From Protoeuglena noctilucae (taxonomy: Eukaryota), in the NCBI GenBank assembly GCA_958009085.1, contig OY253686.1:620001-684000 (forward strand): a DNA stretch of 64,000 nt, read 5' to 3'. The position numbers and the translations under genes were made by a program. The notes below the pieces were generated by a model. That model saw only the letters and a list, made by a program, of their open reading frames with translations, made no database searches and was not told the DNA's origin. This document shows positions 22,967-64,000 of the stretch, in pieces. Positions within the stretch are counted from its first letter, which is position 1, and each line of letters starts with the position of its first letter.

Positions 22967-25145
22967 TCAGTCGAAAAAGCTGCTGGCGAACTCCTGGTAC
23001 GAGATCTTCCCGTCGTGGTTGGCGTCCATCTCGGCGAAAATGACGTCGATGTCCTTGTCCCGCGTGCCCGGCATGCCCCGGATCGCCACCAGGATCTCAT
23101 CGCGGTCGAGGAAGCCGTTGCCGTCTGCGGGTGCATTGATATACATGTGAGCACCACCATCAAGCGAGTGATGGACGCACCAAGCAAGGACGACCGACAA
23201 CTCCCGACACTGAGTTACAGCACGGCAGCTCGCGCACTGCACCTGTGTCGAAGAGGCTGAAGACGTACTGCAGCCGCTCCTGGCGCGTCATCTTGACCTT
23301 GTCCACCGTGGCGGCCAGGAACTCCTTCCAGTCGATCTTGCGGTCCCCGTCCAGGTCCGCCGCCTCCAGCAAGTCCTGGATCTGCTCCCGGCTGATGCGG
23401 TAGGCCGGGTTCTCCAGGGCGCTGCGGAGCTCGTCGACCGTGATCGTGTTGCTGCGGGGCAGGCGGCAGATGAATGGTGGAACACCTCGCGACTCGTCTT
23501 TCGTGGCCGAGATGGTACGCTGCAGGCAGCGACGTGCCAGCCCTGCCCGACATGCGAAGTGCGGAACGGAAACGGCCTCACCTCTTGTCCTTGTCAAGGT
23601 CCTCAAACATGTTCTTCATGCCGCGGATCTCGTCGTCGGCCAGCGTGTCGGCCAGGGCGTACATGGCGCGCTTGATGAGCTTGTTGTGCTTGCTGAACTT
23701 GGCGATGCGCTCCGCCACCACGTGCGACAGGACCGTGTCGGGGGCGTGGCCACACAGCCACGGGTCGCGCAGCACCTCCTCCGCCGTCGGCCTGGACACG
23801 AGCGAGCCGGGGGACGGAGGCCGCTAAGCCACGGGGACTCCCTTGCGAGGCCAAGCAACTTGAGAACCGCCAGGAGCCTCGACGATGCCGTGCTCATCAA
23901 GCATCCGACTCCGCCCCATGGCACGCACCTCATCTTGATGTTGCGCTCCAGCATCTGCTGCACGAGCTTGTGGGCTCCCTCCGAGACGTTGGGCCACGGG
24001 TCCGTCTCGAAGTCGACCGGCTCGTACCGGATCTGCCGGTACACCTGCTTCTGGTCGCCCCAGAAGGGCGGGAGGCCGCTCTGCAGGGAAGGGGAGGACG
24101 CGGGGCGTTGCCGGAGGTGCCCGGGGAGCAGCCCTTGCTTCTGCACGGCCATGCTGCTCGGCACCACCGCTGGCGCCACCGCCAGCGTCTCACCAGGAGG
24201 ATGTAGAGGATGACGCCGACGGACCAGATGTCCGCCTTCTCGTTGTAGCGCGTGACGAGCTCCCCGCGCTCGTTCTTCAGGCCGCACACCTCGGGCGCCA
24301 TGTAGTTGGGGGAGCCCAGGTGCTCGTTGAACCACTGCCCCTTCTTGAAGAACGAGCTGAGGCCGAAGTCGGCGAACTTGATCTGCCCCTTGCCGTCCAT
24401 CAGGAAGTTCTCCGGCTTGATGTCGCGGTGGATGACGCCCATCTGGTGCATCTTGGCCAGGCTCATGAGGATGTTGCGGATCATGTCCGCGGCCTTCTTC
24501 TCCGTGTAGGGCACCTCCTGCTGCACCTTGTCAAACAAGTCCCCCCCCGCGCACAGCTCCTCAATGAGGTGCACCTGGTCCTGGTCCTCAAACGTGTCGA
24601 CGATCGTCACCACGCCCCCCGCGCCCTCCAGGTGCTTCATGATCATCACCTCGCGCCTGCGCAGGTCACAGCTGGCGTGGGGGTCGAGGCGAGCGCGTCC
24701 AGGCAGCACGACACAAGAGGCCATCCGATGGCAAAGAGGCTCTGTAGAGGCCGCAGAGGCTCAAGAAAGATCAAGAACAAATAAGGCCTCACCGCACGTC
24801 CTCCACGTCCAGGATGTCCTGCATGCCCGGCGCCTGGTGGTTCTTGTCGTTGCGGGCAAACTTGTAGATGGTCTTGCAGGCGAACACCTCCCCCGTCTCC
24901 TTGCTCGTGCACTCGCGCACCAGCCCGAACTTGCCCTTGCCGAGCACGCGCCCCAGGTTGTACTTGTCCGCCAGGGGCGGCGTCTCGCGCCCCAGCACGA
25001 ACGTCGGCTCCCCGAGCTTCTTCATGTCCGTGCCCAGGTGCACCGAGATGTGCTTGTAGTTGTCCTTGAATTTGGGGACAAACGGACCCCTGAGCTTCTT
25101 TTCCTCGTCCGTCATCTTCTGCCCTCCCGACGCGCAGTTTCCCAT
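22967..25145 (-). CDS. CDPK: Calcium-dependent protein kinase (kinase, junction domain, 4 EF-hands) with an N-terminal MGNC acylation motif
   Basis: Kinase motifs LGKGKFG, FACKTI, ELCAGGDLFD, HRDIKPENFL, DFGLS and GSPNYMAPE. EF-hands DKDKSNTITVDE, DLDGDRKIDWKE, DTDGNGFLDRDE and DANHDGKISYQE. Confidence 0.95.
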
Positions 25146-26234
25146 AATCAACGTCCCCCAGGCGCGCCCAGCTCTCCAGTGCGGGCGCGGGTCGCGGAAC
25201 TGAGCGGGTCAGATCCGTGCAGAGCTGCCTCGGTCCGCTTCGCCGGGATCCGCGGCGGGGAGCACCTGCGGCGTGGCACGCGGTGGCGTGTTGGATGCCG
25301 GCAACCGGGTCGCGGAGCGAGGAATCCAGCGCTGGCGTTGAGACAACTGCTGATGTTTGCAGACACAGCGGATCAGACCGGCGTCTGGCGCGGGGCCGGC
25401 GGCGGGCAAGAGGCGATCGGAAAGCGCCATTTCCCGGCGAACGGGCGCTCGCGCCCCCTGCAGGGCCCCTGCTGCAGCCATCCTGTGCAATCGGCGCGAC
25501 CCGAAAAAGGGGAGCAGCTGGAGAGATTAGCCGGTTGTTATGCGTGCCTGGGCGGCAAAAGCATCCCCAGCACCTGCGGAGCTGGTCCCTTCCCTCCCGC
25601 TGCCCCCAAACCCGGGAAACGATTCGCCAGCAGGATGCCGCGGTCAACAGAGAGCTGGTGGGATGCAGAGGGCTGCGCGGGCACCTCCAGGCGCCACAGG
25701 GGGCGTGCAAGGCTACAGAGCTTTTGACAGGGCGCCCAGGCACGCGCTGGGCTTTCCGCAGACATCCGAGGGGACAGTCACCGTCAACATGACGACTAAC
25801 CCACGGGAACAACACCCATCGCTGCCCAGAGGCTCGAGCTGGGCACACCAGGGCAGACATGCGAGGTCCCACGGTTCCCTGCGCTCAGCAGAGGCGCGAC
25901 ATCCCCGCGGTCTCACCTCTTCGGAAAGCCTGACGGGCGCTTTCGGCGTCCGATCACGGGGAGCGGGACGGCGCGATCTCCCTGATCCGACGCTCCGAGA
26001 CCACGCTCCGGGACAAGCGCTGCTTTACGACGATAAACGTGCCGACCTCACCGCTTGGCGGGGCCCGGCGAGCCGCTGCCAACTGTGGTCAGCGAGTGTC
26101 AGAGCCAGCTTGCCGCGGGGGGGGGTAGCTGTCGCTCAAAGGGCGCTGCCGGGGCGCGTAGCCGGCAGACGTCTCCCCCTTCACCCGCTTCCCGACTCTC
26201 TCGCGCTCAAGCAAGGCCACAGGGCCCCAGCCAG

Positions 26235-26587
26235 GCGAGTCCGCGCGGGAGCCGGGGGCCCGGCGGGGCCACGGCGTCGCATCTGTCGTAAATCAGCATT
26301 TCCGCACTCATTTTCTGCCGTGGGAGGCAAAGAGTCCCCAGTAGGGCTTAGGTCGCCCCGGACATGTCGGGCAAGGCGACCGGTCCCCGGGCGGCGTGTT
26401 AGGACCCGTTAGGTCGCTGCGCGCGATGCGAGAGCACGGATCGATCTTGCGACCGCCTGTGGACGCGCCTTGGCGCTCCCGATCGGGTCCCCGCGGCAAC
26501 TTTTCGCGCGCGTTGTTGGGCGGGGCCAGGGAGCGCCCCCGCGGCCCCCCGCCGTGCCGATCGCCGGTCCCTGAGCCGTTTTTGCAG
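26235..26587 (+). other. Probable 5'-UTR intron (GC-AG) of the PLAC8 gene
   Basis: CAG|GCGAGT donor at 26235 matches the donor consensus seen across the window. A TTTTTGCAG acceptor ends 5 nt before the ATG. Confidence 0.55.
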
Positions 26588-26592
26588 GAAAG

Positions 26593-27230
26593 ATGTCCGC
26601 TACGCACGGGAAGTGGTCCAGCAGCCTTTTCGGCTGCTGCACCGACTGCGGCGTCTGCTGCTACGGCCTGTGGTGCCTCCCCTGCCTCTACGGGAAGAAC
26701 GCTGACTTCCTCGGCGCCGGCGGGTGCTGCATCCCCTGCCTCTCCTACTACTTCATCTGCTGCTGCGTGGCGCCCCGCACCCGTCGCCAGATCCGCGAGA
26801 AGTACCAGCTGCCGGAGCAGCCCTGGTGAGCGCGCGCGTGCGGCACGAGGCCGGCGGCCACGCGGATTGCGAGCCACGCGCGGTCAATTTGAATGGCATG
26901 GCATGTGGCCCCCTGATCCCTTGGCCAAACCTTCGGCGGCTCGGCACACCTCGCCGTCAAGTCATCGCTCATCGGCACTCCGTCTCCCTCTCGACGCAGC
27001 GGCGACTGCCTGGTCCACCTGTGCTGCAGCCCGTGCGCCGTGTGCCAGGAGGCCCTCGAGATCAAGCTCAAGTGAGTTCGGGGCGGGGCCGCTGGCAAAC
27101 GATTGAGCAATCGCTCGGGCAGCGATGTCACGGAGCGGTGCCGTGTCTTGTTCCTCGCAGGGGCGAGCGGCCGGAGATGACGGGCCAGGTCAACGTGCAG
27201 ACCAACGCCCCGAACCAGGTCCGCATGTAA
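26593..27230 (+). CDS. PLAC8 / plant cadmium resistance (PCR)-family Cys-rich protein, 3 coding exons
   Basis: WSSSLFGCCTDCGVCCYGLWCLPCLYGKN..RRQIREKYQL..C|GDCLVHLCCSPCAVCQE. Confidence 0.92.
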
Positions 27231-34878: not shown

Positions 34879-37800
34879 TCACAGTTCCCCACGAGTGTCC
34901 CCGGCCCGGCTCTGCGGGGCATAGGGAGGCTGACTGACCATTAGACACCAATACCAACGCTTAGCCGCGTTCTACTCATCCGCTGCTTGCATGCGTGTGG
35001 TGTCTCGAGCAACCCCACCCGTCCCTCGCCTGCTTCTGCGTGGCTCTCCTGTGCGCGTCCGCCAGTCTCTCCTTGTACTTCTTCTCCCTCTTGGTCATCG
35101 CGTCCGCCTCCAGCAGCCAGCTGTTGGGCAGCACCACGCCCTGCTCCCGAAGCGTCTTGCGGACCTGTGGACGACGACAGGATGCGTAATGATGGCAAAC
35201 GTAGCAGCACGATCGAGTACTGCGTCACTTCCACTGTGCTGGACTGTGTTGGCACTGAGCCATTGAGTGCTTTGGTTCTGCCTCCAGCCACGGCAGGTGC
35301 CGCCCACGCACACCACTCGCCTTGTACCCCCGCACCCACGCCTGGATGCGGATGACGGCCTTCACCGCCAGCTGCAGCCTCAGCATTTTGTGGTGCCGCC
35401 AGCGCTCCTGCACCAGCCTGGCCGCCCTGCACACCGAGCAATGAGGCGCCTGGCGTTGCATGGATGCCACACGGCAGCGGTGAGCTGGGCGGAATCTCAT
35501 TTCCCTTTCTGCACCACGGCTTATTTTAACAAAACTGTCCAACAAACAAGTGCAACGTACCCCCGACCCCCCAACCCTCTGCCCCTCCCACGGCCCCCTC
35601 ACCTCTGCATCATGGCCGCCATGGCGCTGCCCTCCTCGCCCTCCCTGTCCCCCTGCGCCCGCGGCACCATGACGGCCCCCGCATTCAGCACGCTCTTCCC
35701 CGCCGCAATGCGCAACAGCTCCGAGTTCGCCCTCGGCGCCACCGTCAGGTCGCCACCCGCAGCCCCCGACGGCCCCGAGGGCCCTTCCCCGTCGGAGTCT
35801 CCCTCCTCTTCGTCAATGGTGTCGAGGGAGCCGGGGTCCAGCCCCGCGTCTGCCGGCACGTCCGGGCGCTTCGGGCCGCCTTGCCTGCGATCGGCGGGGA
35901 GGTGGGCGGTGCCAGACGCAACGACAGGGCGCGCGTGGTATGAGGAGGACAGCGGTGCCTGCAGCGCCTCTTGTCGACGAGTAGGTGTGCTTCGGCGGAG
36001 AGCAGGGGAGGCAGCAGCCCGTGCTGGGAATGGGCTGCGACGGGGCAAAGGCAGGTCACAGAGCAATGCGTGGTCCTCTCTCACCTCCTGCGTGGCCTTG
36101 CCGCGATGGCGCTGTCCTGGGGCCGCCCCGCCGCGCTCGCGTGCTCGATGCGCAGGCGCCTCATGTCCGGGTCCTCCCCCTCCACCACCTCCACGCCCGC
36201 ACCCGCCCCGACACCGCCTGCGGCCGACGAGCGCCCCACGACTTGGTGGCAGGCAGCGATGGGCGCGGTAGATGTCAAAGCACACAATAGGCTGAGCCTA
36301 CATTGGTTGGTTGCGCATGTGAGACACAAAGACTTCTGCCGTGTGTGGGCGCAGCCAAAGGGACAGGCAAGCAGCAACCGCATTTGTTTCCATGCTTCTC
36401 ATTCCCCTCCTCACCCGTCTGCAGGATGCTCTCAAGTTCGTCCTGCGGCTCCGGCTCGGTGGTGGTGTTGACGGTGGGCGTGTGCACGCTGCGTCGCATC
36501 CCGAACGACCCCGACCGCTGCGTCGTGATGGGGCGCTTGGCCTGCTGCGGGGGGAGAGAGATGAGGAGATCGGTATTGGCTGCTGGCGCTGTCAATAGCA
36601 ACGACAGGGCATGCATCAGAGATCCCTGCATCGCATCACGCTGCGCATGGTACAAGCCGCGTCGCCCTCACGTCTGCGCCTGGCGGCGGCGGCAGTTCCG
36701 CCACCCCGCCCTCCCTCAGCGCCTTGCTGTTCGCGGCCACCCTCTCCAGCAGCTCCGGCCCCGCCTCGTCGTCCGCAATCAGCACCGCCTCCTCGTACGT
36801 TGCCCCCGCCACCATGGCACGGTCTGCGATTCGGCAACGTTGCTGGAATGCTTAGCAAATGACGATGTCATTGGTCGCATCAACTGATATCGAAAACGTG
36901 CGCATGTCTCCGCGAGCTGGGTCGACGACAGCGCACTCAGGCTCTCCACACTGCCCCAGCGCGTTGTCTCACCGATGACCCGCTTGCGGATGAGGTTGAT
37001 CTGCTGCTCCCGCGCCTGCGCGTCCCACATCTGCTGCTCCTTCTCCCGCTTGAGCGCCTGCGCGCGGTCGCTCTGCAGGCGGCGCCGCAGCTGGGCCGCC
37101 CGGTCCTCCACGTCGTCCTGGGGAGACCCGAGCTCCGCCTCCAAGCCCTCGCCGTAGCGGACGATGCGCGCCTGCGCAAAGAACAGGCACAGCGGGGCGT
37201 TTGCATCGCGGCGCAGCAATCACCTCATGGCATGGGTAGCGGAGACATCGCTTTGCAACACGGCAGTCATCAACCGGCACAGCAAACACACTCTGGCACA
37301 GCAAGGGCCCCCCTCGGGACAGCACTCGCCTCGCCACCACATCACGTTCGCCGCACAGCCGCCCCATGCAATGCAACCGACCCCGACCCCACCCCGCTCA
37401 CCGGCGTCTGGTAGACGAGCTCCTCGACCTCCTGGGTCGGGTCTGGCACGAAATCGAAGTTGAAGTTGCGGAACCCCAGCTGCAGCGTGTACACCTCATC
37501 GGTGGCCGTGCCCGTGGAGGCGCCACCGCGCGCGTCCAGGCCCAGGCCCCCGATGACCCACATGGCGTCCCCTAGCACCGTCGCCGTGTGGCCGGCGCGG
37601 CCGCGGATGGCGTCGCCGCCCACCTGCGCGGGCGTGGAGGAGGCAGCCGTTAATTGATGAACGCAACGACCTCAACCGTGCGGGGTGAGGACGGGGTGAG
37701 AGTACCATAGTACCATAGTCGTTACAGCGACGGGCCACCATGGCGACTGATGACGCCTTGATCATTGTCATACGCCGCATTGACCGAGTTGCTTCATGAC

Positions 37801-39812
37801 ACACTCGTCACTTGCACCCCACACCCAGGTGCCTCTCGCCTTGATCTGGTGCCACCGCCAGTCCTTGCGGGGGTCCCCTTTAACCGACATGACGTGCACC
37901 TCGTTGCTCATCGTGACGCCCGTCCAGCCCCCGAACAGCACCACCATCTGCAGCTCCGGCACGTACGTCAGCGTGTGGCCCGACCGCGCCGAGGGGGGCT
38001 TGCCCTGGGGCATGACCTGAGGGTTGGGTGGGCGACAGGGAGAGTGACGGACAAAGCACGGAGCGGATGCAATGGGGGTCGTCCGTAGGCTCTCATTTAG
38101 TGCAGAGCAAAGGCGCAGGGGGTGCCGCGAGTGTTAGCGCGACAATGTCATGACCCTCATCATCCTTCTTACCAGGATCCACTCGAATCGGTTCATGTCC
38201 AGCACCCACATGTCCTGCCGCTGCCCGTACTGGTCCTGTCCCCCGTGGATCACCATCCACGTCCCGTCCCTCATCACGCACGACGCCGAACTGGCACGCG
38301 GTGCGGGGGACATGCCCTGCAACGGACGGATGCACGGTGCATGGCAACCGACGATTCGATTGGTGAATCTGCTGCATGCGCCTGTTTTCCAGTCCATCCC
38401 TACCCATATGACCCATGGGTCAGTTTATGACGTCACCCTGCCCTCTCTGCCCATGGCCGCCTGGCCAAGCCACCGCCCGTCCCCTAACACTCACCCCGTC
38501 GTCCTTGACCCGCTTCAGCGCCCATCGCCACGAGTCCGTGTTGAGCACGTACACATGCTCGATGAAGGCCGTGTTCCACCCCCCGTACACGACCATATGA
38601 CGGCCCCCAAACGACACACCACACGAGTGGTTGCAGCGGCCCACGGGGACGTCGCCCTGCGGGGGATCGGACCCGATGAGCTAGCTGTTTGCTTTACGTG
38701 GCTGCCTCAGAAATGTCGCATGCTTGGCTGAGGTGCACGGCAGCCTGTCTGATGGAGCCCCCATGCCTGACGTGCAGCTAGGCAACGAGGGTGCTCATGC
38801 TCTCACCTGCGGCACGACTGTCCCCCAAATGTCCTCCTCCAGCCCCGCCGGTGGGTCCTTGCCCCTCAGATGCCCGGGGACTTCGAGCTTGGCAGGCGGG
38901 TTGGGCCCACGCTTCATCACGCCCCATTCCTCCAGGATGGCCAGGTCTGGCAAGAAACGCGGTGAGAGTCGATATCGCAGTCATCACTATGCAGTAGAGA
39001 GGGGCGCCTGACCACAGCGCTGAGGTCGGGCCACAGGGCGCGGCCATGCATGTTGATGGGGCAGAGTGATGGTGCGAGCAGGGTGGCCATGTCTCTCACC
39101 GGACAGGCAGTCCCCGCGGTTGAAGCCGCCGTACAGGAGCAGCACGGGCACGGCCCCGCGTGCCAGCTTCCGCTGCTCGGGCGCCACGATGGCCGCGGAG
39201 TGGTACGCGCGGGCCCGGGGGGGATAGTAGGTGTGGACGCTCTGCCACTTGAGCGTCTGGGTGTTGAGCGAGTAGAAGTCCTGCAGGAACTGGTCGCCGT
39301 TGGCCCCGCCGAAGATGAAGATGCGAGAGTCCTTGGGGTTCATGATGAAGGCCGTGTGGCCGCCGCGGGGAGGGGGCCTCCGGACCTGGGGCATCACCCC
39401 GGTCTCCTTCTTCGTCCATAGCCCCTGCGCGGGCGCGGAGGGGGCGGCGCTCGCTCCGGGGGCGGAGAGCGAGCCTCGCATGAGTGACAGCGTGCCTGTG
39501 GGCCGCGTCCCGCACCTCGATGTGGCCTTCCCCGCGCTGGCGGTCCTTTGCCTGCTGCACCCAGTCACTCGCTCCAAGCACGTCGGCCTCAACCCCCTGC
39601 GGCAGCGCCAGGAAGGCAAGCATGGATGGAAATCCAAGCCAGGGCCGGGGCGCGGAGAGCAAGGACAAGCGCATGAGATAAGGAACGCGCTTGCGGTGAC
39701 GTGGGCTGCCCACGGACGAAGCAAGCGTCGGCCAGAGCGCACCGGCGCTCACCTTGTCCTTGGCCTTCAAGAGGCTCGCGCCGGTCCGCCGGTTCTTCAA
39801 CATGGACGCCAT
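34879..39812 (-). CDS. Kelch-repeat beta-propeller protein with a C-terminal helical region and IQ calmodulin-binding motifs
   Basis: About six Kelch blades (PPPRGGHTA..IFIFGG, PRARAYHSA..LLYGG, GRCNHSC..VVYGG, APRASSASC..VIHGG, PSARSGHTL..VLFGG, RGRAGHTAT..WVIGG). C-terminal AARLVQERWR and IQAWVRGYK|VRKTL. Joining both halves into one gene is inferred from compatible splice sites. Confidence 0.7.
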
Positions 39813-40353
39813 GACGGTATGCAGGCGACTCAGGTCCGTCGGACAGGACGTCTATTCACCCGCGCGAGGGGCAGGGCGACGCGGGCGGCACGCGCATGTG
39901 CATGTCTGGCCCAGCAACAGTGTGAGGTACCGGGCTTCACTGCGACCGTTCCGACAGGCGACACTTGCGAAAATAGGGCGGCGCTGGCACATAGAAGGGA
40001 CGGGCCCCGCGAGTCCGACCGGGGTCAGCAGTCAGAACCCGCGTGCGGGCGCCCGGCATCAACGGTTCCGCCGTGGGTGCGAGGAGCAATAATCGTCGAA
40101 CCGAGCGACGTCGCCACCCGCGGATGCCCAACCCGGAAGCTCCTTTGGCCGGACGTGGAACCCACCCCGCTGCGCGCTTTCCCGCGGCTTGCCGTGCACC
40201 GCGAGGGTCGCAGGCCTGCTTCGACAGTGCGAGGGAGTGACCGCGCCGTGCCTGACTCGCGCGTGTGGACGAGGGTGGCGGGAAGCTGCGTGCCGGCATC
40301 CGGTTGCGGTGCACCCGTCTGCTCCTCGCGTATCGGGCAACGCCGTCGCCGGA

Positions 40354-43300
40354 ATGCATAACCGTCTACAATCGCTCGCGAGTACCTCCGCGGCGGCCCC
40401 GTCGAGGCCTCTGCGCGCGCGACGGGCCGCGCGATGCAGGGCGGGGCCCCCGGAGGGTGGGGTCGGCGACGCGGTAGCCGCGACGGGCCAGGTGCGCTGG
40501 CATGCCTTTTTGCGCCTGGACGTGTTCCGTGCGCGTCGGCTTTACGCTGCCGCGTTAACGGCGCGGGTGGCAGGGGAAGCTTCCTGCCCCCCGTGTGTAC
40601 GGCGCGAACTCCGCGGCGGATGGCGGCTTAACGGCTTCGCTTCCGAGCGCCATCCAATGCTTGTTACTAGCAGGTGCAGACGTTGTCCATCGAGGAGCAG
40701 CTGGACGTTCTGCGGAAGGCCCGCGAGGAGTCGCTGGTGCGTGGCGGCCTCAGGAGCACTTCCCGGCGCGCCCCGGATCTCGCATACCCCGCGACATGAC
40801 GCTCCGCTGTTCTTTGTTCGCAGAAAGTGCTATCGCAGTATCCATCCATCTCGAGCAGCATCGTATCGCCCGCGCTCGTGCAACAGCCTGGAGCCAGGGC
40901 TGCGGGGGGCGTCGGCGTCGTGGACGTCCGGATGTACGAACAGGTGACCGCGTCGTGCTTTGATTGTTTGTACGGTATTGCGTGCGGGAGGGCGGTCCGA
41001 ACGCGGCCTCCTCGACGACGTTCTCGCGACCTCGACCGGCCGGGCTCTCTGGACCGCAGCTGGAGAAGAGCCGCGCGCGGCTCAGCGCGCAGCTGGCCGA
41101 GGAGCGACGCGTCAACGGATTCCTTCGTCGAGTCGCGGAAGAGCGAGAAAAGGAGGTTTCGGACGGGGCGGAGCTGCTTCGGAAGGTGCGACCGCCATGC
41201 ATGGTTGGGACCGCAGCTGACACTGCCCCGTCTCCTTTCACTACCCGCGACTGCCTCGAGGGGGTGAGCTAGTCCATGCATCGCAAGCGCGTGACGGTCT
41301 TTGATCCCGTCTCCCTCGCAGGCCGCCCAGGTGGTCAGCGCGGTGATGCGGTTAGCGCGGCGTGCAGCGGACGTGGTGCGCTTCGGGGTGGATCGGGACG
41401 AGATGCTCTTTGGCCTGGAGACTCTGATGGAGCGGCTGGAGATGCTGAACGAGGTCGTGGTGCGTCGCAGCGAGCGCAGGGGTGCTGCTCGAGGTCGCCA
41501 GCCCATCTGTCGCTCGCTCGGCTCGTTGCTGCTCAAGCATCGCCGTGCTTTGCTGCAGGGTGAGACGGCTACAGAGGCGGACGCGCTGCGGCGGCGCGAG
41601 GTGCCGATCGAGTGGCTGAGCCCCGCGAGTGAGGTGCGCGTGATGGGGACGTTTGACGAGTGGACGACGGGCGTCGAGCTGTCTCCCGAAAGCATCGAGG
41701 ACTCGGGTGAGGACCGCGTGCAATGCCGTGTGGTGCCCGCATGGCTGAAGAGCCCAGTCTGCCCGTGTGGCTGACGTGGCAGGAGCTGACACGAGCTGCT
41801 CTCCGCTCGCAGTGATGACCCGGTTCGTCGGGACGCTGATGCTCCGCCCTGGGAGGCACCACATCAAGTTCTTGGTGGACGGGGAGTGGCGCCTGGCCCC
41901 CACGTGGCCCATGGAGCAGGACGAGATGGGCAACGACTGCAACGTGGTGGAAATCAAGGCGACAGACCTGACGCTGAAGCCGGTGAGAGGGGGGCCTGGT
42001 TGCTACTGTTACCTGAAGCCAGTGCTTGCATGCCCGATGCACCCTGCCGCACCTGCTAGGCTCGCCTGCGCGCCTATGCGGAGCGACACCAGGGCAGCCT
42101 GTGGTCGGGACTTGGCTGGTGACCGCGTTCCGTGGCCGTCACTGTGACGTCATCGCCGTCTCTCAACGTCGCCACCGTCGCTGCCGTGTCTGCAGGAGAC
42201 GCGCAGCCTCGTGAGGGAGGGCCTTCCCGACGTGGCGCGCCCCACAACCGGCTCTGGCAAAGCCCTGGCCGACCTGGTCGACGCCGAGAGGGCCGCGTCA
42301 CCGGCCCCCGACTCGGCCAAAGTTGATGCCAAGGCCTCTGAGGCAGAGGCCAAGCGGGCTGAGGAGGCCAAGCGTGCTGAAGAGGCCAAGCGGGCTGAGG
42401 AGGTCAAGGCGGCAGAAGCGAAGGCTGCCGAGGCCAAGCGGGCTGAGGAGGCCAAGGCTGCTGAAGCCAAGCGTGCGGAAGAGGAGACCAAGGCTGCTGA
42501 GGAGGCCAAGGCTGCTGAGGAGAAGGCTGCTGAGGCCAAGCATACGGAGGAAGTGAAGGCGGCTGAGGCCAAGGCAGCCGAGGAGGCCAAGGCTGCTGAG
42601 GAGGCCAAGGCCGCTGAAGCCAAGCGTGCCGAGGACGAAGCTAAGGCGGCAGAGGCGAAGCGCATTGAGGTGGAGGCCAAGCGTGCTGAGGAGGAAGCTA
42701 AGGCGGCAGAGGCGAAGCGCGCTGAGGAGGAGGCCAAACGAGCTGAGGAAGAAGCTAAGGCGGTGGAGGCGGCCAAGCGTGCGGAGGAAGAGGCCAAGGC
42801 GGCCGAAGCCAAGGCTGCTGAGGAGGCCAAGGCTGCCGAGGCGAAACGCGCCGAGGAAGAAGCCAGGGCCGCAGAGGAGGCCAAGCGTGCTGAAGAGGCC
42901 AAGCGCGCTGAGGAGGAGGCAGCTAAGGCTGCTGAGGCCAAGCGCGCTGAGGAAGAGGCCAAGGCAGCTGCCGAGGCCAAGCGCATGGAGGAGGAGGCGG
43001 CCAAGGCAGCTGAAGAGGCGGCCAAGGCTGCTGAGGCCAAACGTGCTGAGGAGGAGGCCAAGGCAGCTGCCGAGGCGGCGGCCAAGGTTGCGCAGCCCGC
43101 GGATCAGGGCAAGGGTAGTGGCACCGTCCTCACCAACACGGGTGACCAGGGCAGCATTGAGCGGTACGTGGCAGGGGTGGACAGCCCCGCGCCCGTCTTG
43201 CCCAAGGTGGAGGCGTCCATCATGCACGCGCTGGCGCAGGCGGCCGCGCCCATCGTCCAGGCGCTGACCCACGCGACCGCACCCGCGGCGCCAGCAGGCA

Positions 43301-44109
43301 AGGCGGCCCCCCCTGCCACCACGCCGGCTGCCAGTGCGCCCGTTTCCGGGGACAAGCCGGCCGCCCCGCCTGCCCCGGCGCCCCCCGCGTTCCAGTCGGT
43401 GTTTAGCTGGGGCAACCCCACTGTTTTCGAGGCGCCCATCTACGCCAAGCCTGCTAAGTCGGCCCCTGCTGACGCGGCCCCTGGCACCCCCGCGCCCGTT
43501 GAGCCGGTTTCCGCGAGCGCAGCGCCGGCGGAGGCGGCGTCTCCCAGCCCAGCCCCCGCTGCGCAGGGCGAGGGCTCAGACCCGCCCCGGCCTGCTGGCC
43601 AAGTGGCTGGGCAGGAGCCGCCCGCCCCTCGCCCTCCCTTAACGCCGCTCCCCTCCATTTTCTCGCCGCACAGCGGCGCCTCCTCCGCCCAATCCAATGC
43701 CGTGCCGAAGCCCATTGCCCCCGCGGATGCCCCGCCCTCTCCCGCCACGCCTGCCGCCCCCGCCGCGCCCGCCACCCCTGCCGCGCCCGTTGCTGCTGCC
43801 GACGCGCCCAAGCCCCTCCCGCTGCTGCCGATCGTCGGCACCTCCCGCGTGTTGGGCTCCAAGGGCGTCGCTGCTCCTGCCAGCGTGGACAGCTCGGACA
43901 GCCCTGGTGACCGTGGCGCGCCTGCTGGCCCCCGCGCCCCGCCCTCTCCGCCCATGCCGCCCATCGTCTCCCGCCCCTCCGGCGAGGTGTTTGTGCGCCC
44001 CGAGAGCGCCACGCTGCGCAAGCTCAAGCAGGCCATCGAGGAGGCCCGGGCCATGCGCGAGCTGCCCATTGTTCGGAGGTCCCAGGACGGCGACTTTGAG
44101 AACAAGTGA
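40354..44109 (+). CDS. PTST1-like plastid starch-binding protein (transit peptide, coiled coil, CBM48) with a ~640-aa C-terminal extension; 8 exons
   Basis: CBM48/AMPK-beta-type motifs VPIEWLSPASEVRVMGTFDEWTTGVELSPE..FVGTLMLRPGRHHIKFLVDGEWRLAPTWP..GNDCNVVEI, preceded by a coiled coil. Donor GTGAGA at 41983 and acceptor AG ending at 42195 join in phase 0 to the 42211-44109 ORF. Confidence 0.8.
42340..43086 (+). repeat. Coding degenerate tandem repeat (EAKRAE / EAKAAE units), about 250 aa
   Basis: Repeated GAGGCCAAGCG(T/G/C)GCTGAG and GAGGCCAAGGCTGCTGAG units with synonymous third-position variation. Confidence 0.95.
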
Positions 44110-44250
44110 CGGGCCATGGGTGGCGAGCTAGGCACTAGCCAGTGCGCGGCGCCGTTCTGGATAATCTTTAGACTCTAGGCTGCCGGCAAACAAATTGAAG
44201 TAGGCGGAAAGACAAGTTACGACATGGCACATACGCTGCACATCACGCCC

Positions 44251-46371
44251 CTACCCCTGCCCTCGGCCCCCGCTCCCTGTCGCCGGGGCCGCCCACTCTG
44301 GCGGGGCCAGGATGCGCGCGGAGGGACTCTCCGGCGCCCCTAGCTGCCCGCACGCTGCCATCTCGTCGTCGCCCCGGCTGTCGCGCACCGTGCACACGTA
44401 CCCGTCGGCGATGAGGGCGCTGCGGAAGGACGCCACCGCGGCGGGGGTGCTGGGCGCGAATTGGGCGCCCTGGTGGGGGTTGAACACGATCAGGTTGACC
44501 TGCGGTGCAGGTAGCGAGGCAGAGTTGATACAATGACGCCCTTGTCATGCCACACTGGTGTAGAAGGCGTGGGAACCGGCCATGGCGGTGCCATTGCAGC
44601 GTTCCGATGGCCTCACCTTGCACTTGATCCCCCGCAGCAGGGCTCCGAGCCTCTGGGCGTCTTCGGCCGTGTCATTCACGCCCTTCAGCATGACATACTC
44701 GATGAGCACGAAGCCCTTGCCCTCTCTCGGAAACAGCTCCTCCAAGCAGCCGAGCAGCTGTGCCAAGGGGTACCTGAGAGGCATGGCAAGAGAGGCATGA
44801 CAAGCAGGCGTCCAACGCATGCTCACAGAGGAACCGTTCCCTTTGCAAGCGACAGCACAAACTGGCCAAAGCACGTTAGCAATCGATCCCGGCCCCTCGC
44901 CTGCGGTTGACGGGCACGATCCAGTCCCGCACGGCGTCGGTGGTGGCGTGCAGGGACACCGCGAGCTGTCCCCCCACGGGGCTGCTGGCAAAGGCGCGGA
45001 TGCCGGGGACCAGCCCGACGGTGGACACGGTGACCTTCTCGCGGGACATGTGCAGTCCCTGGGGATCGCAAACAATGGCCAGGGCGCGCTCGACGGCCGG
45101 CCAGTTGTCCAGGGGCTCGCCCATGCCCATGAACACCAGGTTGGTCACTGTCGATGGCAGGCCGCCTGGGGGTGCGGGTGCGGGTGGGCGCGGTGTCAAG
45201 CGGGTGCCACTGGCCCTCAGCATCACGAGCCGTTTTCATCAGCCCCAGTCATCCAGCTTGCCTCGTTCCGCCACGTGCCGCTTTGCCTGCACCACTTGCT
45301 CGACCACCTGCGCCGCGCTCAGGTTGCCCCGCAGACCCATCCTGCCCGTGTAGCAGAACTGGCAGTTCATCGCGCACCCCACTTGCGTCGACACGCACAC
45401 GGTCACCCGCCGGCGCCGGCCCTCTGACCTGCAAACAGCGAAAGCCAGGCTCTCAAGCAAGATCGGCCCGCTGACGTTCACTCCCACACAGCCGATGGGC
45501 ATTGGACAAGCGATCTGCCCGCCCTGTGCCTCACCGCACGACGGGGATGAGGACCGTCTCCACTCTGCCCCCCGCAGCCTCCCCTGCAGTGACGCGAAAC
45601 ACCAGCTTGGTGGTGCCGTCCGAGGCGTCGTGGGCCTCCAGGAGCTCCAGGCCACCGTCTGGAGTCCCGCGACCCCGCACAGCTTCCCGGAACCGCGCTG
45701 AGAAGCCGTTCTGCAGGCCCTCCGTCTCGTCAAACGTGCTCATGTACAGGGAGCCGCCGTACGAGGGGGAGTCCGAGTACATCCAGCGCCAGACCTGGCG
45801 CGCTCGGCGCTGCGGGTAGCAAAAGATGGGGCTTTCAGCACGCATCGTCGCGTGCAATGCGGCCTGCTCCTTCGCGAGCTGAAGCACCTCCGGTTCGGCG
45901 TCTCCCACGCTCGCGCACCATTCCACGAGCTCTGGAAACAGCATGTCTTTCAGCAAGAACTCATCGCCGGCGCAAGTGCCGGGCTGCGGGGAAGGGGGAC
46001 AGGATTAAGTGCGTGGAGGTGCGTGGGCCGTTGAAAGACAATGGTGGAGCTCAACGAGCACCTTTGTACTGCATTATCATCGCACCAGCCACTCGCATGC
46101 ATGCAGACCGGGAGATAGAAGTGCTGTCACGCATTATCACCCTTTTCTTCGCTGCGTGCTCCCCGCCCAGGGGCCCCGGAGCCGGTGCGTGCGCCACGGC
46201 GCGCAAAACAAGGCCTTTGTCACGCCCCCCGACCGTGCGTCGCTCAGCCAGCTCTGCACGCTGACGCAAAGCGCTGCCCCATGCTAGCGAGCAGCTCAGG
46301 GGCAGCGAACGGACATGGCGGCAGTGGTGGCCGGTCCAGCAAGCCGAGGGAGCTCTGAACGCGACACTCAT
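44251..46371 (-). CDS. rlmN: RlmN-like radical SAM RNA methyltransferase, probably organelle-targeted
   Basis: [18 protein letters not shown] (CxxxCxxC), [31 protein letters not shown] and AACGQL. The N-terminal exon [11 protein letters not shown].. looks like a transit peptide. Confidence 0.92.
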
Positions 46372-52321: not shown

Positions 52322-55485
<3,164 letters not shown>

Positions 55486-59787: not shown

Positions 59788-60172
59788 GCCGCCTTCCAGG
59801 GTTTCACGTCACGTCCGATCCGAGCGATGGCAGCAGTTCTGTGGACGATGTTCCTACGAGGAGCACCCAACAAGCCTTGTGCATCGACCCGGCGCTCGGT
59901 TTTCTGGCTAGGGTTTTGCTCAAAATCCTCGGCAGTCCCCAGCGCGTCGCGGGTCCGTCACGCATATCGACGCCTTTGTTCGGTCTCGCGGGGGATGTCC
60001 TGCGGGTCAACTCGGGCGGTTGGCCGTGACCAAGGAGGCCTTCGGCATGCGGTGACATGCACCCTTCCGTTCGTGCTCGTTTTTGGCGGCTCCTGGCTTG
60101 AGCGGCGGCGCCAGGCAGCAGTCTCTTCGGCGGACCGAGTCCCGGTCCTGGCTGCCGGAGGGAGGGGCGGGG

Positions 60173-63100: not shown

Positions 63101-63801
63101 AGAGCGCCGCGGAGGGCGATCGCCCGGGGGAGGCGGCGCCGCGTGCCCCCGCGGGGTCGGCGTCTGCGCTGACGGCGGCGTTGTTGTCGCGCGAGGTGGC
63201 GCCGATCGGTGCCGCGGAGGGCCTGCGGCCGTGGACGCGCGAGGGGGCCCCGGGGCCGGCCGTCGTCCCCGCGGCTCTCGTGGCGTCGGCCCAGTCCTCG
63301 CAAGCGTCCGGCAACGAGGAGCTGGAGAAGCTCGAGTCGGTGTACGGCAGCGTGGGGGCCTACTCGGGCCTGGGCTCAATGGTGGAGGGGGAGGGCGCGG
63401 GCGACGGCGGCGCGGACGGCCTGTCGTCGCTGCTGGGGTCGGAGTACGAGGGGGCGGAAGAGGGCGCGTGGCCGGGAGGGGCTGCGGAATCGGACGCGTC
63501 GGCTGGGGAGCCGGGCCCGGAGGTGCCGCAGGGTGCGGGGCAGGAGGGGGGCGGGGGCAAGAAGCCGAAGAAGAAGCGGAGCAAGAAGCGGCTGGCGCGC
63601 AAGGCGTCGAAGAAGCAGCCCGCGACGGAGGCGGGGGAGCGGCGGCCGGGGAAGAGCCCCTCTCGGAAGCGGGGCCAGCTGAGCAAGGGGCCCACGCCCA
63701 AGAAGGGGGAGTTGGAGACCGCCGCGGGGCAGCCCCGGGCCCCGGTGAGCAAGCGGCCCACCCCTAGCAAGAGCGACATGGACCGAGCCGCCCGGGGGTG
63801 A
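60173..63801 (+). CDS. Multi-pass membrane protein (XK-related-like segment) plus ~6-7 ankyrin repeats and a long disordered tail
   Basis: Hydrophobic helices with LDIATDFIYL and AALLHSAPQVALLAYV. Ankyrin motifs GQTLLHDAA, GQTPLHIAA, GRTPLAVAA, GMTPLHLAV, GKTLLHIAA and RRTPLMLAM. Polybasic KKPKKKRSKKRLARKASKK lies near the end. Confidence 0.8.
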
Positions 63802-64000
63802 CCGACGATGACGCCGGCGTTGGATGCGTTCCCACGCGGCGACTGACGCGCCGGGAGGTGCGCAGGGCCGCAGCGAAACAAAACTGGCTTAGGAGCCTGG
63901 CTGGAAGGCTCGCCGCTGTCGTCCCGGTAATACCCTTTAGGATGACCCCTAGGCGACCGTGGGCTGCTGGCGTTGTGGGTGCACTTTCCGTGATCCATGC

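What the first reader, a model, noticed from the sequence alone, without database searches (positions are those of the whole stretch)
40354..44109. PTST1-like starch-binding protein fused to a ~250-aa helical repeat rod and a ~340-aa disordered tail: candidate starch-sheath/pyrenoid tether
Seen: transit-like peptide, coiled coil and CBM48, then a phase-0 GT-AG intron (41983-42195) into one 1.9-kb exon encoding EAKRAE/EAKAAE repeats and a Pro/Ala-rich tail. Known: land-plant PTST1 ends right after its CBM48 and delivers GBSS to starch. In Chlamydomonas the starch sheath is organised by SAGA1/SAGA2, which pair a starch-binding module (CBM20) with long helical regions. Inference: this lineage may have independently built a SAGA-like starch-binder, spacer and low-complexity-tail tether from a PTST1/CBM48 scaffold.
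Basis: partly seen in the sequence, partly recalled or inferred. Interest (0 to 1): 0.82.

Follow-up and report, generated by a model that had tools for sequence, protein, structure and literature searches.

The report
Starch-binding PTST1 with long helical tail
A marine green alga makes its version of the starch-granule adaptor protein PTST1 with an unusual 637-residue extension (a stiff charged helix followed by a floppy proline/alanine-rich tail), which could let it link starch to something else, though nothing yet shows to what.

Summary
An 8-exon gene (40354-44109, + strand, 938 aa) encodes a transit-like N-terminus, a PTST-type coiled coil, a CBM48 split over exons 6 and 7, and one 1.9-kb exon. 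RNA-derived contigs from two metatranscriptome runs of one study join all seven GT-AG introns with no mismatch, including 41982/42196. A DNA run shows no joints. The N-terminal 301 residues are a chlorophyte PTST1 orthologue. Its nearest relative is an unnamed metagenome protein at a locus that shares the upstream Kelch gene; among named sequences Pedinophyceae is nearest.

The extension is rare. Twelve of 17 coiled-coil-homologous relatives, and 40 of 44 metagenome loci, stop at the CBM48. Only the positional orthologue has a tail, of 65 residues. Exon 8 has no detectable homologue. It folds as one 257-residue helix with a strong single-alpha-helix charge register, followed by about 340 mostly disordered residues with short hydrophobic islands and a terminal helix.

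The SAGA-like pyrenoid tether idea stays untested. There is no CBM20 and no Chlamydomonas-type Rubisco motif, and whether the organism has a pyrenoid is unknown. Verdict: a real, expressed, new architectural variant of PTST1; the role of the extension is unknown.

The parts
40103..40353 (+). 5' UTR as far as RNA contigs reach; it holds an out-of-frame 38-codon uORF at 40124-40240
   Evidence: The X4 contig begins at 40103 and the X5 contig covers 40110-40364. The uORF was found by script.
40354..40491 (+). Exon 1 (aa 1-46): Ala/Arg/Ser-rich, transit-peptide-like N-terminus
   Evidence: A 24%, R 15%. The junction 40491/40674 is in RNA contigs. Plastid targeting was not tested.
40674..40736 (+). 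Exon 2 (aa 47-67)
   Evidence: Both junctions are in RNA contigs X1 and X4.
40824..40943 (+). Exon 3 (aa 68-107); PTST homology starts near aa 95
41060..41185 (+). Exon 4 (aa 108-149): coiled-coil region homologous to PTST1 relatives
   Evidence: phmmer of aa 96-200 against the fetched proteins gave E 1.4e-33 (P0003 cluster) down to 3e-4.
41322..41459 (+). Exon 5 (aa 150-195): second half of the coiled-coil region
41559..41706 (+). Exon 6 (aa 196-244 plus 1 nt): first third of the CBM48
   Evidence: Pfam PF16561, E 2.2e-4, profile positions 3-32. The phase-1 junction is in RNA contigs.
41813..41982 (+). Exon 7 (aa 245-301): remainder of the CBM48 plus 9 residues of linker
   Evidence: Pfam PF16561, E 6.5e-15, profile positions 35-84. 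22 of 24 conserved family columns are kept, including W214, W230, K263, W270, W276 and N288.
41983..42195 (+). Intron 7, phase 0, GT-AG, 213 nt
   Evidence: Skipped in RNA contigs of X1 and X4, with 151 nt laid on the 3' side. Depth inside it is 0 in those runs, and DNA run X7 is colinear.
42196..44109 (+). Exon 8 (aa 302-938 plus TGA): the whole extension
   Evidence: Open frame. No Pfam family. The word share of 0.68 in RNA runs matches full inclusion (my arithmetic).
42313..43083 (+). Charged helical rod (aa 341-597), made of E/A/K/R repeats
   Evidence: AlphaFold2 gives one helix, pLDDT mostly 70-87. Composition is A 42%, E 30%, K 16%, R 7%, with 7 large hydrophobic residues in 255 aa. There are 154 opposite-charge i+3/i+4 pairs against 72.5 +/- 6.4 in shuffles, and 1 same-charge pair against 74.5.
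43084..44106 (+). Pro/Ala-rich tail (aa 598-938) with short hydrophobic islands
   Evidence: pLDDT is below 50 for most of it. PIV occurs 4 times (0 of 20000 shuffles reach 4) and [VI]F occurs 4 times (14 of 20000); both motifs were chosen after looking.
43198..43272 (+). Short predicted helix in the tail (aa 636-660), overlapping a 33-nt direct repeat
   Evidence: AlphaFold2 helix at exon-8 residues 335-359, block pLDDT up to 76. TRF array 43213-43284.
44008..44058 (+). C-terminal amphipathic helix (aa 906-922), followed by the last PIV motif
   Evidence: AlphaFold2 helix at exon-8 residues 605-621, block pLDDT 69-77. Hydrophobic moment is up to 0.57 in 18-residue windows starting at 898-902.
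37438..39427 (-). Upstream, divergently oriented Kelch-repeat gene. It marks the locus as positionally orthologous to metagenome locus L001.
   Evidence: tblastn of the L001 Kelch ORF gave E 3e-92, 1.5e-29 and 3.4e-15. Pfam Kelch matches below the gathering score.

Best explanation
This is the PTST1 (PROTEIN TARGETING TO STARCH 1) orthologue of a GC-rich, intron-rich marine chlorophyte. It is expressed as one 8-exon mRNA. In this lineage it has gained a 637-residue C-terminal extension encoded by a single exon. Shown: the gene model and its splicing; homology of aa ~95-292 to PTST1-type coiled coil plus CBM48, with the conserved aromatic, Lys and Asn positions of the family kept; the rarity of the extension; and its anatomy. 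That anatomy is a ~257-residue E/A/K/R helix with a single-alpha-helix charge register and no hydrophobic seam (about 38 nm if fully helical). It is followed by ~340 mostly disordered Pro/Ala-rich residues carrying a few hydrophobic islands, and it ends in a short amphipathic helix. Inferred: the CBM48 holds the protein on starch or malto-oligosaccharide, and the coiled coil recruits a starch enzyme (GBSS in Arabidopsis). The rod would act as a monomeric spacer that presents the tail's short motifs tens of nanometres from the granule surface to a second, unknown partner. On this reading the protein is a granule-anchored adaptor or tether rather than a plain PTST1. Which partner it binds (Rubisco matrix, thylakoid or envelope, or another starch protein) is not known.
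For: Splicing: two RNA contigs join all 7 introns with 0 mismatches, and the DNA run has no joints. The word share of 0.68 fits the 0.69 expected for the full spliced mRNA. CBM48: Pfam PF16561 on exons 6 and 7. A profile of relatives hits the CBM48 of LSF1, SIP2 and AMPK beta in the PDB at E 4.5e-11 to 1.2e-7 (17 distinct sequences). PTST1 orthology: phmmer of aa 1-301 gives 1.7e-89 to P0003, 5e-60 to Pedinophyceae sp. YPF-701, 8e-47 to Coccomyxa elongata, and hits to Polytomella, to a Chlamydomonas euryale-like sequence and to Populus 'protein PTST'. In the tree, the window groups with P0003 at 100/99, then with Pedinophyceae and P0108 at 92/94. 22 of 24 conserved columns are kept. A preprint reports PTST1 in Chlorophyta and PTST2/3 only in Streptophyta (10.1101/2024.10.03.616402, passages). 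Positional orthology of L001 comes from the shared upstream Kelch gene. Rarity: see the counts. Rod. Tail motifs. Coding signal in the tail: GC3 is 0.82 against 0.64 in introns.
Against: Nothing shows that the extension has a function. It has no homologue, so no conservation test is possible. The positional orthologue manages with a 65-residue low-complexity tail. Some repeat units are still 80-89% identical at the DNA level, as expected from recent slippage or duplication, and the charge register may simply be inherited from the amplified unit. The tail motifs were picked after looking, so their shuffle counts overstate significance. AlphaFold2 ran on a single sequence (pTM 0.21) and cannot tell a single alpha helix from a coiled coil. 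Only about 195 nt of exon 8 are physically joined to exon 7 in a contig. The RNA evidence comes from one study, and contigs cannot exclude a minor intron-retaining isoform that would stop at about 42145. GBSS binding, starch binding and plastid location are all inferred from other organisms.
Confidence: 0.5

Rival explanations
1. This is an ordinary PTST1 carrying a functionally neutral low-complexity expansion. The E/A/K/R repeats and the Pro/Ala-rich tail arose by replication slippage and drift in a GC-rich genome. The protein works like any PTST1, targeting GBSS to starch, and the extension is tolerated baggage.
For: There is no homologue of exon 8 anywhere searched. The positional orthologue has only 65 low-complexity residues. 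The repeats are degenerate tandem DNA arrays with some units at 80-89% identity. 313 of 637 residues are predicted without structure. From general knowledge, not from a call: GC-rich green-algal proteomes are rich in Ala/Pro/Gly low-complexity inserts.
Against: The 1914-nt frame is kept open and the tail has exon-like GC3 (0.82). The charge register is extreme even though units of 5, 6, 11 and 19 residues are mixed: 1 same-charge i+3/i+4 pair against 74.5 expected. Hydrophobic residues in the tail are clustered, and it ends in a predicted helix. The exon is fully represented in RNA.
Confidence: 0.3
2. It is a starch-pyrenoid tether, a functional analogue of Chlamydomonas SAGA1/SAGA2 and Chlorella PMST. 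The CBM48 sits on the starch sheath, and the tail motifs bind this lineage's Rubisco or its linker.
For: The architecture (carbohydrate-binding module, long helix, disordered region with repeated short motifs) matches what PMC13167743 predicts for non-Volvocales algae (passages). It also parallels PMST, which has a CBM20 plus a disordered region with six Rubisco-binding motifs and binds starch plates in vitro (10.64898/2026.07.17.739135, passages). PIV occurs 4 times and [VI]F 4 times in the tail.
Against: There is no CBM20. There are 0 matches to the Chlamydomonas motif (pattern recalled). Only one short helix, seen by eye, faintly recalls the helical CsLinker-type motif printed, and I did not compute that comparison. 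It is unknown whether the organism has a pyrenoid or a starch sheath (no genome held). No paper in the library links PTST or a non-enzymatic CBM48 protein to a pyrenoid role.
Confidence: 0.13
3. It is a starch-granule positioning adaptor that binds a membrane, combining the roles of land-plant MFP1 and PTST2. The rod and tail would tie granules or initiation sites to thylakoid or envelope membranes through the terminal amphipathic helix.
For: Chlorophytes lack MFP1, PII1 and PTST2/3 (passages), so another positioning device is expected. There is a terminal amphipathic helix. SAGA1/2 have been likened to MFP1 plus PTST2.
Against: There is no transmembrane segment. The hydrophobic moment is modest (at most 0.57). 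No homology to MFP1 was tested or seen. This is purely architectural reasoning.
Confidence: 0.05
4. These are two separate genes or an assembly chimera: a normal PTST1 ending after the CBM48, plus an unrelated downstream low-complexity ORF.
For: Reading through intron 7 gives a stop at about 42145, which would make a PTST1 with a short tail (the 110-aa ORF P0001). Exon 8 has no homologue.
Against: RNA contigs in two runs join 41982 to 42196 with 151 nt or more on the 3' side and 0 mismatches. Depth inside the intron is 0, and an independent DNA run covers the region colinearly.
Confidence: 0.02

Closest known systems
PTST1 (PROTEIN TARGETING TO STARCH 1) of land plants and its chlorophyte orthologues (for example Pedinophyceae sp. 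YPF-701 CAG9467719.1, Coccomyxa elongata CAL8468184.1)
   Same: The N-terminal presequence-like region, the homologous coiled coil and the CBM48 are arranged in the same order. The family's conserved residues are kept.
   Different: Those proteins (163-427 aa in the set seen) end 0-15 residues after the CBM48. This one continues for 646 residues (aa 293-938), through a spliced-on exon.
Unnamed metagenome orthologue P0003/P0151 (loci L001-L003)
   Same: It is the sister in the tree (100/99), with 54% identity over 259 columns. It shares the upstream Kelch neighbour. It also continues past the CBM48, and the first ~25 residues after the domain align loosely in MAFFT.
   Different: Its tail is 65 residues, K/G/D/E-rich, with no rod and no Pro/Ala-rich region. 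BLASTP finds no alignment to exon 8. The gene region matching window exons 3-7 is uninterrupted in L001, and the downstream genes differ.
Chlamydomonas SAGA1 / SAGA2
   Same: Each is a non-enzymatic starch-binding module joined to long helical and disordered regions. SAGA1/2 connect starch to a second structure (PMC13167743, passages).
   Different: SAGA proteins use an N-terminal CBM20 and carry the Volvocales Rubisco-binding motif. Here the module is CBM48, placed after a PTST coiled coil, and that motif is absent. There is no sequence relationship.
Chlorella sorokiniana PMST (putative matrix-starch tether)
   Same: A starch-binding domain fused to a long disordered region with repeated short binding motifs (10.64898/2026.07.17.739135, passages).
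   Different: PMST has a CBM20, six CsLinker-like helical motifs and no rod. Here I did not compute any match to that motif.
Single alpha-helix (ER/K) domains and engineered A(EAAAK)n linkers (recalled, not from a call)
   Same: An E/K/R/A-rich sequence with dense i+3/i+4 salt-bridge potential and no hydrophobic seam.
   Different: It is unusually Ala-rich (42%) with net charge -20. Monomeric stability is untested. I found no plastid starch protein with such a domain reported in the searches I ran.

Membership tests
PTST1 | CBM48 (Pfam AMPK1_CBM, PF16561) with the family's conserved aromatic, Lys and Asn positions | tested here: met
   Exon 7 scores E 6.5e-15. Exon 6 scores E 2.2e-4, below the cutoff on its own because the domain is split. 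22 of 24 conserved columns are kept.
PTST1 | Coiled-coil region directly upstream of the CBM48, homologous to that of PTST proteins | tested here: met
   aa 96-200 hit 17 proteins (10 clusters) at E below 1e-3, including Pedinophyceae, Coccomyxa and Polytomella. Coiled-coil propensity itself was not computed.
PTST1 | Groups with PTST1 rather than PTST2/PTST3 | tested here: inconclusive
   The tree places it among chlorophyte PTST-like proteins, apart from land-plant PTST (Populus 'protein PTST', Linum, Camellia). No PTST2/3 sequences were available. A preprint states that chlorophytes have only PTST1.
PTST1 | Protein ends at the CBM48 (canonical architecture) | tested here: not met
   646 residues (aa 293-938) follow the domain. 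This is the variant feature.
PTST1 | Plastid transit peptide | tested here: inconclusive
   There is an Ala/Arg/Ser-rich N-terminus, but no targeting predictor was available.
PTST1 | Binds GBSS through the coiled coil and starch through the CBM48 | not testable with these tools
   Needs biochemistry. Whether the genome encodes GBSS could not be checked.
SAGA1/SAGA2 | CBM20 starch-binding domain | tested here: not met
   Pfam finds no CBM20 on exons 4-8 at E up to 1 (exons 1-3 were not scanned); the only families found are CBM48 and a weak CBM53 (E 0.14).
SAGA1/SAGA2 | Copies of the Volvocales Rubisco-binding motif [D/N]W[R/K]xx[L/I/V/A] (pattern recalled) | tested here: not met
   0 matches in aa 600-938; the single Trp is not followed by R or K.
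SAGA1/SAGA2 | Localises to the starch-matrix interface | not testable with these tools
   Needs tagging or immunolocalisation.
Chlorella PMST-type tether | CBM20 plus a disordered region with several CsLinker-like helical Rubisco-binding motifs | tested here: not met
   No CBM20. The motif comparison was not computed, because the motif sequence is known to me only from the paper text and I did not enter it. By eye, at most one weakly similar helix (aa 906-922).
Single alpha-helix (ER/K) domain | Dense opposite-charge i+3/i+4 pairs, few same-charge pairs, no hydrophobic heptad seam | tested here: met
   154 against 72.5 +/- 6.4 (0 of 5000 shuffles reach it); 1 against 74.5 same-charge; 7 large hydrophobic residues in 255. 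AlphaFold2 gives one 257-residue helix.
Single alpha-helix (ER/K) domain | Stable monomeric helix in solution | not testable with these tools
   Needs CD, AUC or SAXS.

The most novel reading that the evidence does not exclude
This lineage has turned its PTST1 into a starch-to-pyrenoid (or starch-to-membrane) tether. The CBM48 and coiled coil stay on the granule. A ~38-nm single-alpha-helix rod spans the gap. The PIV and [VI]F islands and the terminal helix of the tail are this lineage's own binding motifs for Rubisco or its linker. It would be the first CBM48/PTST-based counterpart of SAGA1/2 and PMST, and a third independent invention of a matrix-starch tether.
Probability: 0.13. Interest if true: 0.75.

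Novelty: new variant of a known kind. Interest (0 to 1): 0.45.

Why it matters
PTST proteins are the known adaptors that bring enzymes to starch granules. In green algae the PTST1 orthologue is essentially unstudied, and the proteins that position starch (SAGA1/2, PMST, LCI9) all use CBM20. A PTST1 that naturally carries a long rigid spacer and a motif-bearing disordered tail would be a ready-made test of a specific question: can the PTST scaffold be recruited for spatial organisation of starch, around a pyrenoid or elsewhere? That question bears on the convergent evolution of pyrenoid starch sheaths and on efforts to build them in crops. If the extension proves neutral, it is still a clean, RNA-verified example of how a single added exon of low-complexity sequence triples the size of a conserved plastid protein.

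Tried and rejected
1. Homologues of the extension. I ran the search for homologous proteins on exon-8 residues 290-637 (8000 candidates scored, none at E 1e-3 or better) and on residues 575-637 (51 candidates, none). Both covered only proteins of 350-1115 aa; shorter and longer proteins were not searched, and the first search was swamped by Pro/Ala words. phmmer of the tail against the 159 fetched proteins found nothing. BLASTP of P0003 against the first 135 residues of exon 8 gave no alignment. In the ESM Atlas the best feature score was 0.76 and the best TM was 0.22, which is noise level. Pfam found nothing.

2. Word-index search with exon 7 and 'longer' lengths returned only the window's own 110-aa ORF. 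The exhaustive representative search was the one that worked.

3. Whole-genome questions (GBSS, Rubisco linker, other proteins with PIV motifs, other CBM48 proteins) could not be asked. No genome is held for this window.

4. Earlier notes of this scan: none for this genome and none for 'PTST ... pyrenoid'. The 'CBM48' hits were bacterial systems that do not bear on this finding.

5. The 'two genes' reading is rejected.

6. Canonical coiled coil for the rod is rejected as the less likely reading, because there are only 7 large hydrophobic residues in 255. It was not tested experimentally, and I did not run a dimer prediction.

7. Parts without RNA cover: introns have 0 depth in X1 and X4, and X5 (a second study) covers only 40110-40364. 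I draw no conclusion from X5's absence elsewhere.

Among named sequences, Pedinophyceae is nearest for this one protein, which is not a placement of the organism.


Full report
**What is there**

The window is GC-rich (0.64-0.76 per 2 kb) and carries intron-rich eukaryotic genes. Reading 40300-44150 in three frames and joining the open stretches at GT-AG sites gives eight exons on the + strand:
- 40354-40491
- 40674-40736
- 40824-40943
- 41060-41185
- 41322-41459
- 41559-41706
- 41813-41982
- 42196-44109

The CDS is 2817 nt including the stop, and the product is 938 aa. Pfam places AMPK1_CBM (PF16561, the CBM48 model) on exon 6 (profile positions 3-32, E 2.2e-4) and exon 7 (profile positions 35-84, E 6.5e-15). 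A domain split by the phase-1 intron 6 should look exactly like this. Exons 4, 5 and 8 match no family.

**Is it one transcript?**

The look-up of sequencing runs listed 14 runs. Four metatranscriptome runs of one study hold 0.68 of the sampled words. Four runs of 'organism A' hold 0.99 and may be the source DNA.

I laid X1, X4 and X5 (RNA) and X7 (DNA) on 39800-42345. I stopped before the repeat array because the tool turns long repeats away.
- One X1 contig (1127 nt) and one X4 contig (1349 nt) skip exactly the seven predicted introns, each GT..AG, with 0 other letters. This includes the 213 nt between 41982 and 42196.
- Depth inside intron 7 is 0 in both runs.
- X7 is colinear with no joint.
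- X5, from a second study, covers only 40110-40364.
- Both spliced contigs end about 45 nt past 42345, at the start of the repeats, so about 195 nt of exon 8 is physically linked to exon 7.

The rest of exon 8 is supported indirectly. Exon-internal 31-mers make up 2577 of 3726 (0.69) if all of exon 8 is in the mRNA, and 0.23 if the mRNA stopped near 42390. The observed share is 0.68 (the arithmetic is mine). The junction evidence comes from two samples of one study. Contigs also cannot exclude a rare intron-retaining isoform, which would stop at about 42145.

**What the N-terminal 301 residues are**

An exhaustive HMMER search with exon 7 found 394 proteins at E 1e-3 or better (49 at 1e-10 or better), and the best 150 were listed. 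Many of these are multi-CBM48 proteins. The single-domain hits with 50-73% identity are PTST-like.

Names came from two cluster look-ups:
- Pedinophyceae sp. YPF-701 (322 aa)
- Coccomyxa elongata (340 aa)
- Polytomella parva
- Chlamydomonas euryale
- Populus 'protein PTST'
- Linum
- Camellia

phmmer with the spliced aa 1-301 gave 1.7e-89 to the unnamed P0003 cluster, 5e-60 to Pedinophyceae and 8e-47 to Coccomyxa. The coiled-coil part alone (aa 96-200) hits 17 proteins in 10 clusters at E below 1e-3.

A 17-row ML tree puts the window with P0003 (100/99), then with Pedinophyceae and P0108 (92/94). The land-plant PTST sequences form a separate clade. The rows were my own choice from the hits, and no PTST2/3 sequences were available.

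The window keeps 22 of 24 invariant or near-invariant columns of the relatives' alignment, including the four Trp, the Lys and the Asn of the CBM48. A profile of the relatives hits the CBM48 modules of LSF1, SIP2 and AMPK beta in the PDB (17 distinct sequences, E 4.5e-11 to 1.2e-7). A preprint reports that chlorophytes have PTST1 but not PTST2/3, MFP1 or PII1 (10.1101/2024.10.03.616402, passages only).

**How unusual the extension is**

| Set examined | Ends at the CBM48 | 65-residue tail | Undetermined |
|---|---|---|---|
| 17 proteins (10 clusters) with coiled-coil homology | 12 proteins in 9 clusters, 0-11 residues after the domain alignment | 5 proteins, 1 cluster (P0003) | 0 |
| 44 of 62 metagenome loci with a tblastn match to exon 7 | 40 | 3 (L001-L003) | 1 (L055, stops mid-domain, probably at an intron) |

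The other single-domain PTST-like hits that I checked, including the three land-plant ones, end within 15 residues of the domain. None of the relatives has anything like exon 8.

L001 is a positional orthologue. Its upstream minus-strand Kelch ORF matches window 37438-39427 (E 3e-92). The two ORFs downstream of the L003 gene have no match in the window. In MAFFT the first ~25 residues after the domain align loosely between the window and P0151, so a short extension may predate their split. BLASTP, however, finds no alignment between P0003 and the first 135 residues of exon 8.

**Anatomy of exon 8**

The rod (aa 345-599):
- Composition is A 42%, E 30%, K 16% and R 7%, with net charge -20.
- Only 7 of 255 residues are large hydrophobic residues.
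- Opposite charges sit at i+3/i+4 154 times, against 72.5 +/- 6.4 in shuffles (0 of 5000 reach it). Like charges sit there once, against 74.5 expected.
- AlphaFold2 on the single sequence (mean pLDDT 57.7, pTM 0.21) gives one helix over exon-8 residues 40-296, with pLDDT mostly 70-87.
- This is the signature of a single alpha helix rather than a heptad coiled coil. At 0.15 nm per residue it would span about 38 nm.
- TRF shows mixed periods of 15-99 nt, with some units at 80-89% identity. No other E/A/K/R-rich stretch exists in the window.

The tail (aa 600-938):
- It is A 22% and P 20%. In the model of all of exon 8, 313 of 637 residues, most of them in the tail, have pLDDT below 50.
- AlphaFold2 predicts short helices at aa 322-335, 636-660 and 906-922.
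- Hydrophobic residues cluster in a few islands. PIV occurs 4 times (0 of 20000 shuffles) and [VI]F 4 times (14 of 20000). I chose both motifs after looking, so these counts flatter them.
- GC3 in the tail (0.82) matches exons 1-7 (0.84) rather than introns (0.64).

No homologue of the extension was found. The limits of those searches are given under Tried and rejected.

**How it probably works**

Shown: an expressed PTST1 orthologue with an intact-looking CBM48 and coiled coil, plus a rod and a disordered tail.

Inferred from Arabidopsis PTST1 (Seung et al. 2015, as cited in the passages, otherwise recalled): the CBM48 binds the granule and the coiled coil recruits GBSS.

Inferred from anatomy alone: the rod is a monomeric spacer, and the tail offers short linear motifs to a second partner, making the protein a granule-anchored adaptor. 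I put about 0.5 on that reading. I put about 0.3 on the extension being neutral low-complexity growth. The remainder goes to specific partners: pyrenoid matrix 0.13, membrane 0.05.

**Comparison with known systems**

- SAGA1/2 join CBM20 modules to Rubisco-binding motifs and localise starch to the pyrenoid. The authors predict analogous proteins, with a carbohydrate-binding domain and lineage-specific motifs, in other algae (PMC13167743, passages).
- Chlorella PMST is a CBM20 plus a disordered region with six CsLinker-like motifs, and it binds starch plates in vitro (10.64898/2026.07.17.739135, passages).
- LCI9 is a CBM20 coiled-coil protein that its authors compare with PTSTs (10.1101/2025.11.18.689020, passages).
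- A review passage repeats the SAGA description (PMC13655443, one passage).

The present protein resembles these in layout but is a member of none. It has no CBM20 and no Volvocales motif (pattern recalled). The CsLinker-type motif was not compared computationally.

In the held library, 'pyrenoid' with 'CBM48' gives 7 papers and 'PTST' with 'pyrenoid' gives 8 (listings, plus passages of four of them). In what I saw, none reports a PTST with such an extension or a PTST at the pyrenoid.

**Verdict**

This is a new architectural variant of a known family, of moderate interest.

Noticed in passing
window 40124-40240 (+): An out-of-frame 38-codon upstream ORF lies in the 5' UTR, which is covered by RNA contigs starting at 40103. 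It is the only ATG before the main start.
   Followed up: partly
window 37438-39427 (-) and 39800-39953: A divergently oriented Kelch-repeat gene lies upstream and is conserved in position in metagenome locus L001. A separate X4 RNA contig ends at 39953, leaving only about 150 nt without RNA cover between the two transcripts. This may be a shared bidirectional promoter.
   Followed up: partly
L001 4275-4700 (+), L003 993-1418 (+) and L003 1910-3709 (-): In the orthologue's locus, a 141-aa ORF of normal composition starts 58 nt after the PTST stop. A 599-aa minus-strand ORF follows; by eye it looks like an acetyltransferase/bromodomain protein, but I did not test that. Neither has a match in the window, so gene order breaks at the 3' end of the PTST gene.
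   Followed up: partly
proteins P0008-P0060 and similar: Dozens of ~470-490-aa proteins made of four tandem CBM48 modules, and larger ones with up to seven, rank among the best hits to exon 7. One of them (P0002, 1409 aa) is named as an alpha-amylase N-terminal Ig-like domain protein of a MAG. I did not examine them.
   Followed up: no
P0025 / P0041 / P0163 (about 600-655 aa; P0163 is from Tetraselmis chui): These algal proteins have two CBM48 modules followed by a C-terminal part that by eye looks like a HAD-type phosphatase. I did not test that.
   Followed up: no
window 44879-45235 (-), 12310-13020 (-), 23933-25208 (-), 26575-26826 (+), 52868-54720 (-), 18341-18898 (-), 60056-61066 (+): Pfam on exon-sized ORFs shows ordinary neighbouring genes: a radical-SAM fragment (below the cutoff), DNA primase small subunit, a protein kinase, PLAC8, a papain-type protease with an I29 propeptide, a RING finger and ankyrin repeats.
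   Followed up: partly
window 62001-64000: GC content rises to 0.76 in the last 2 kb of the window. I did not examine this.
   Followed up: no
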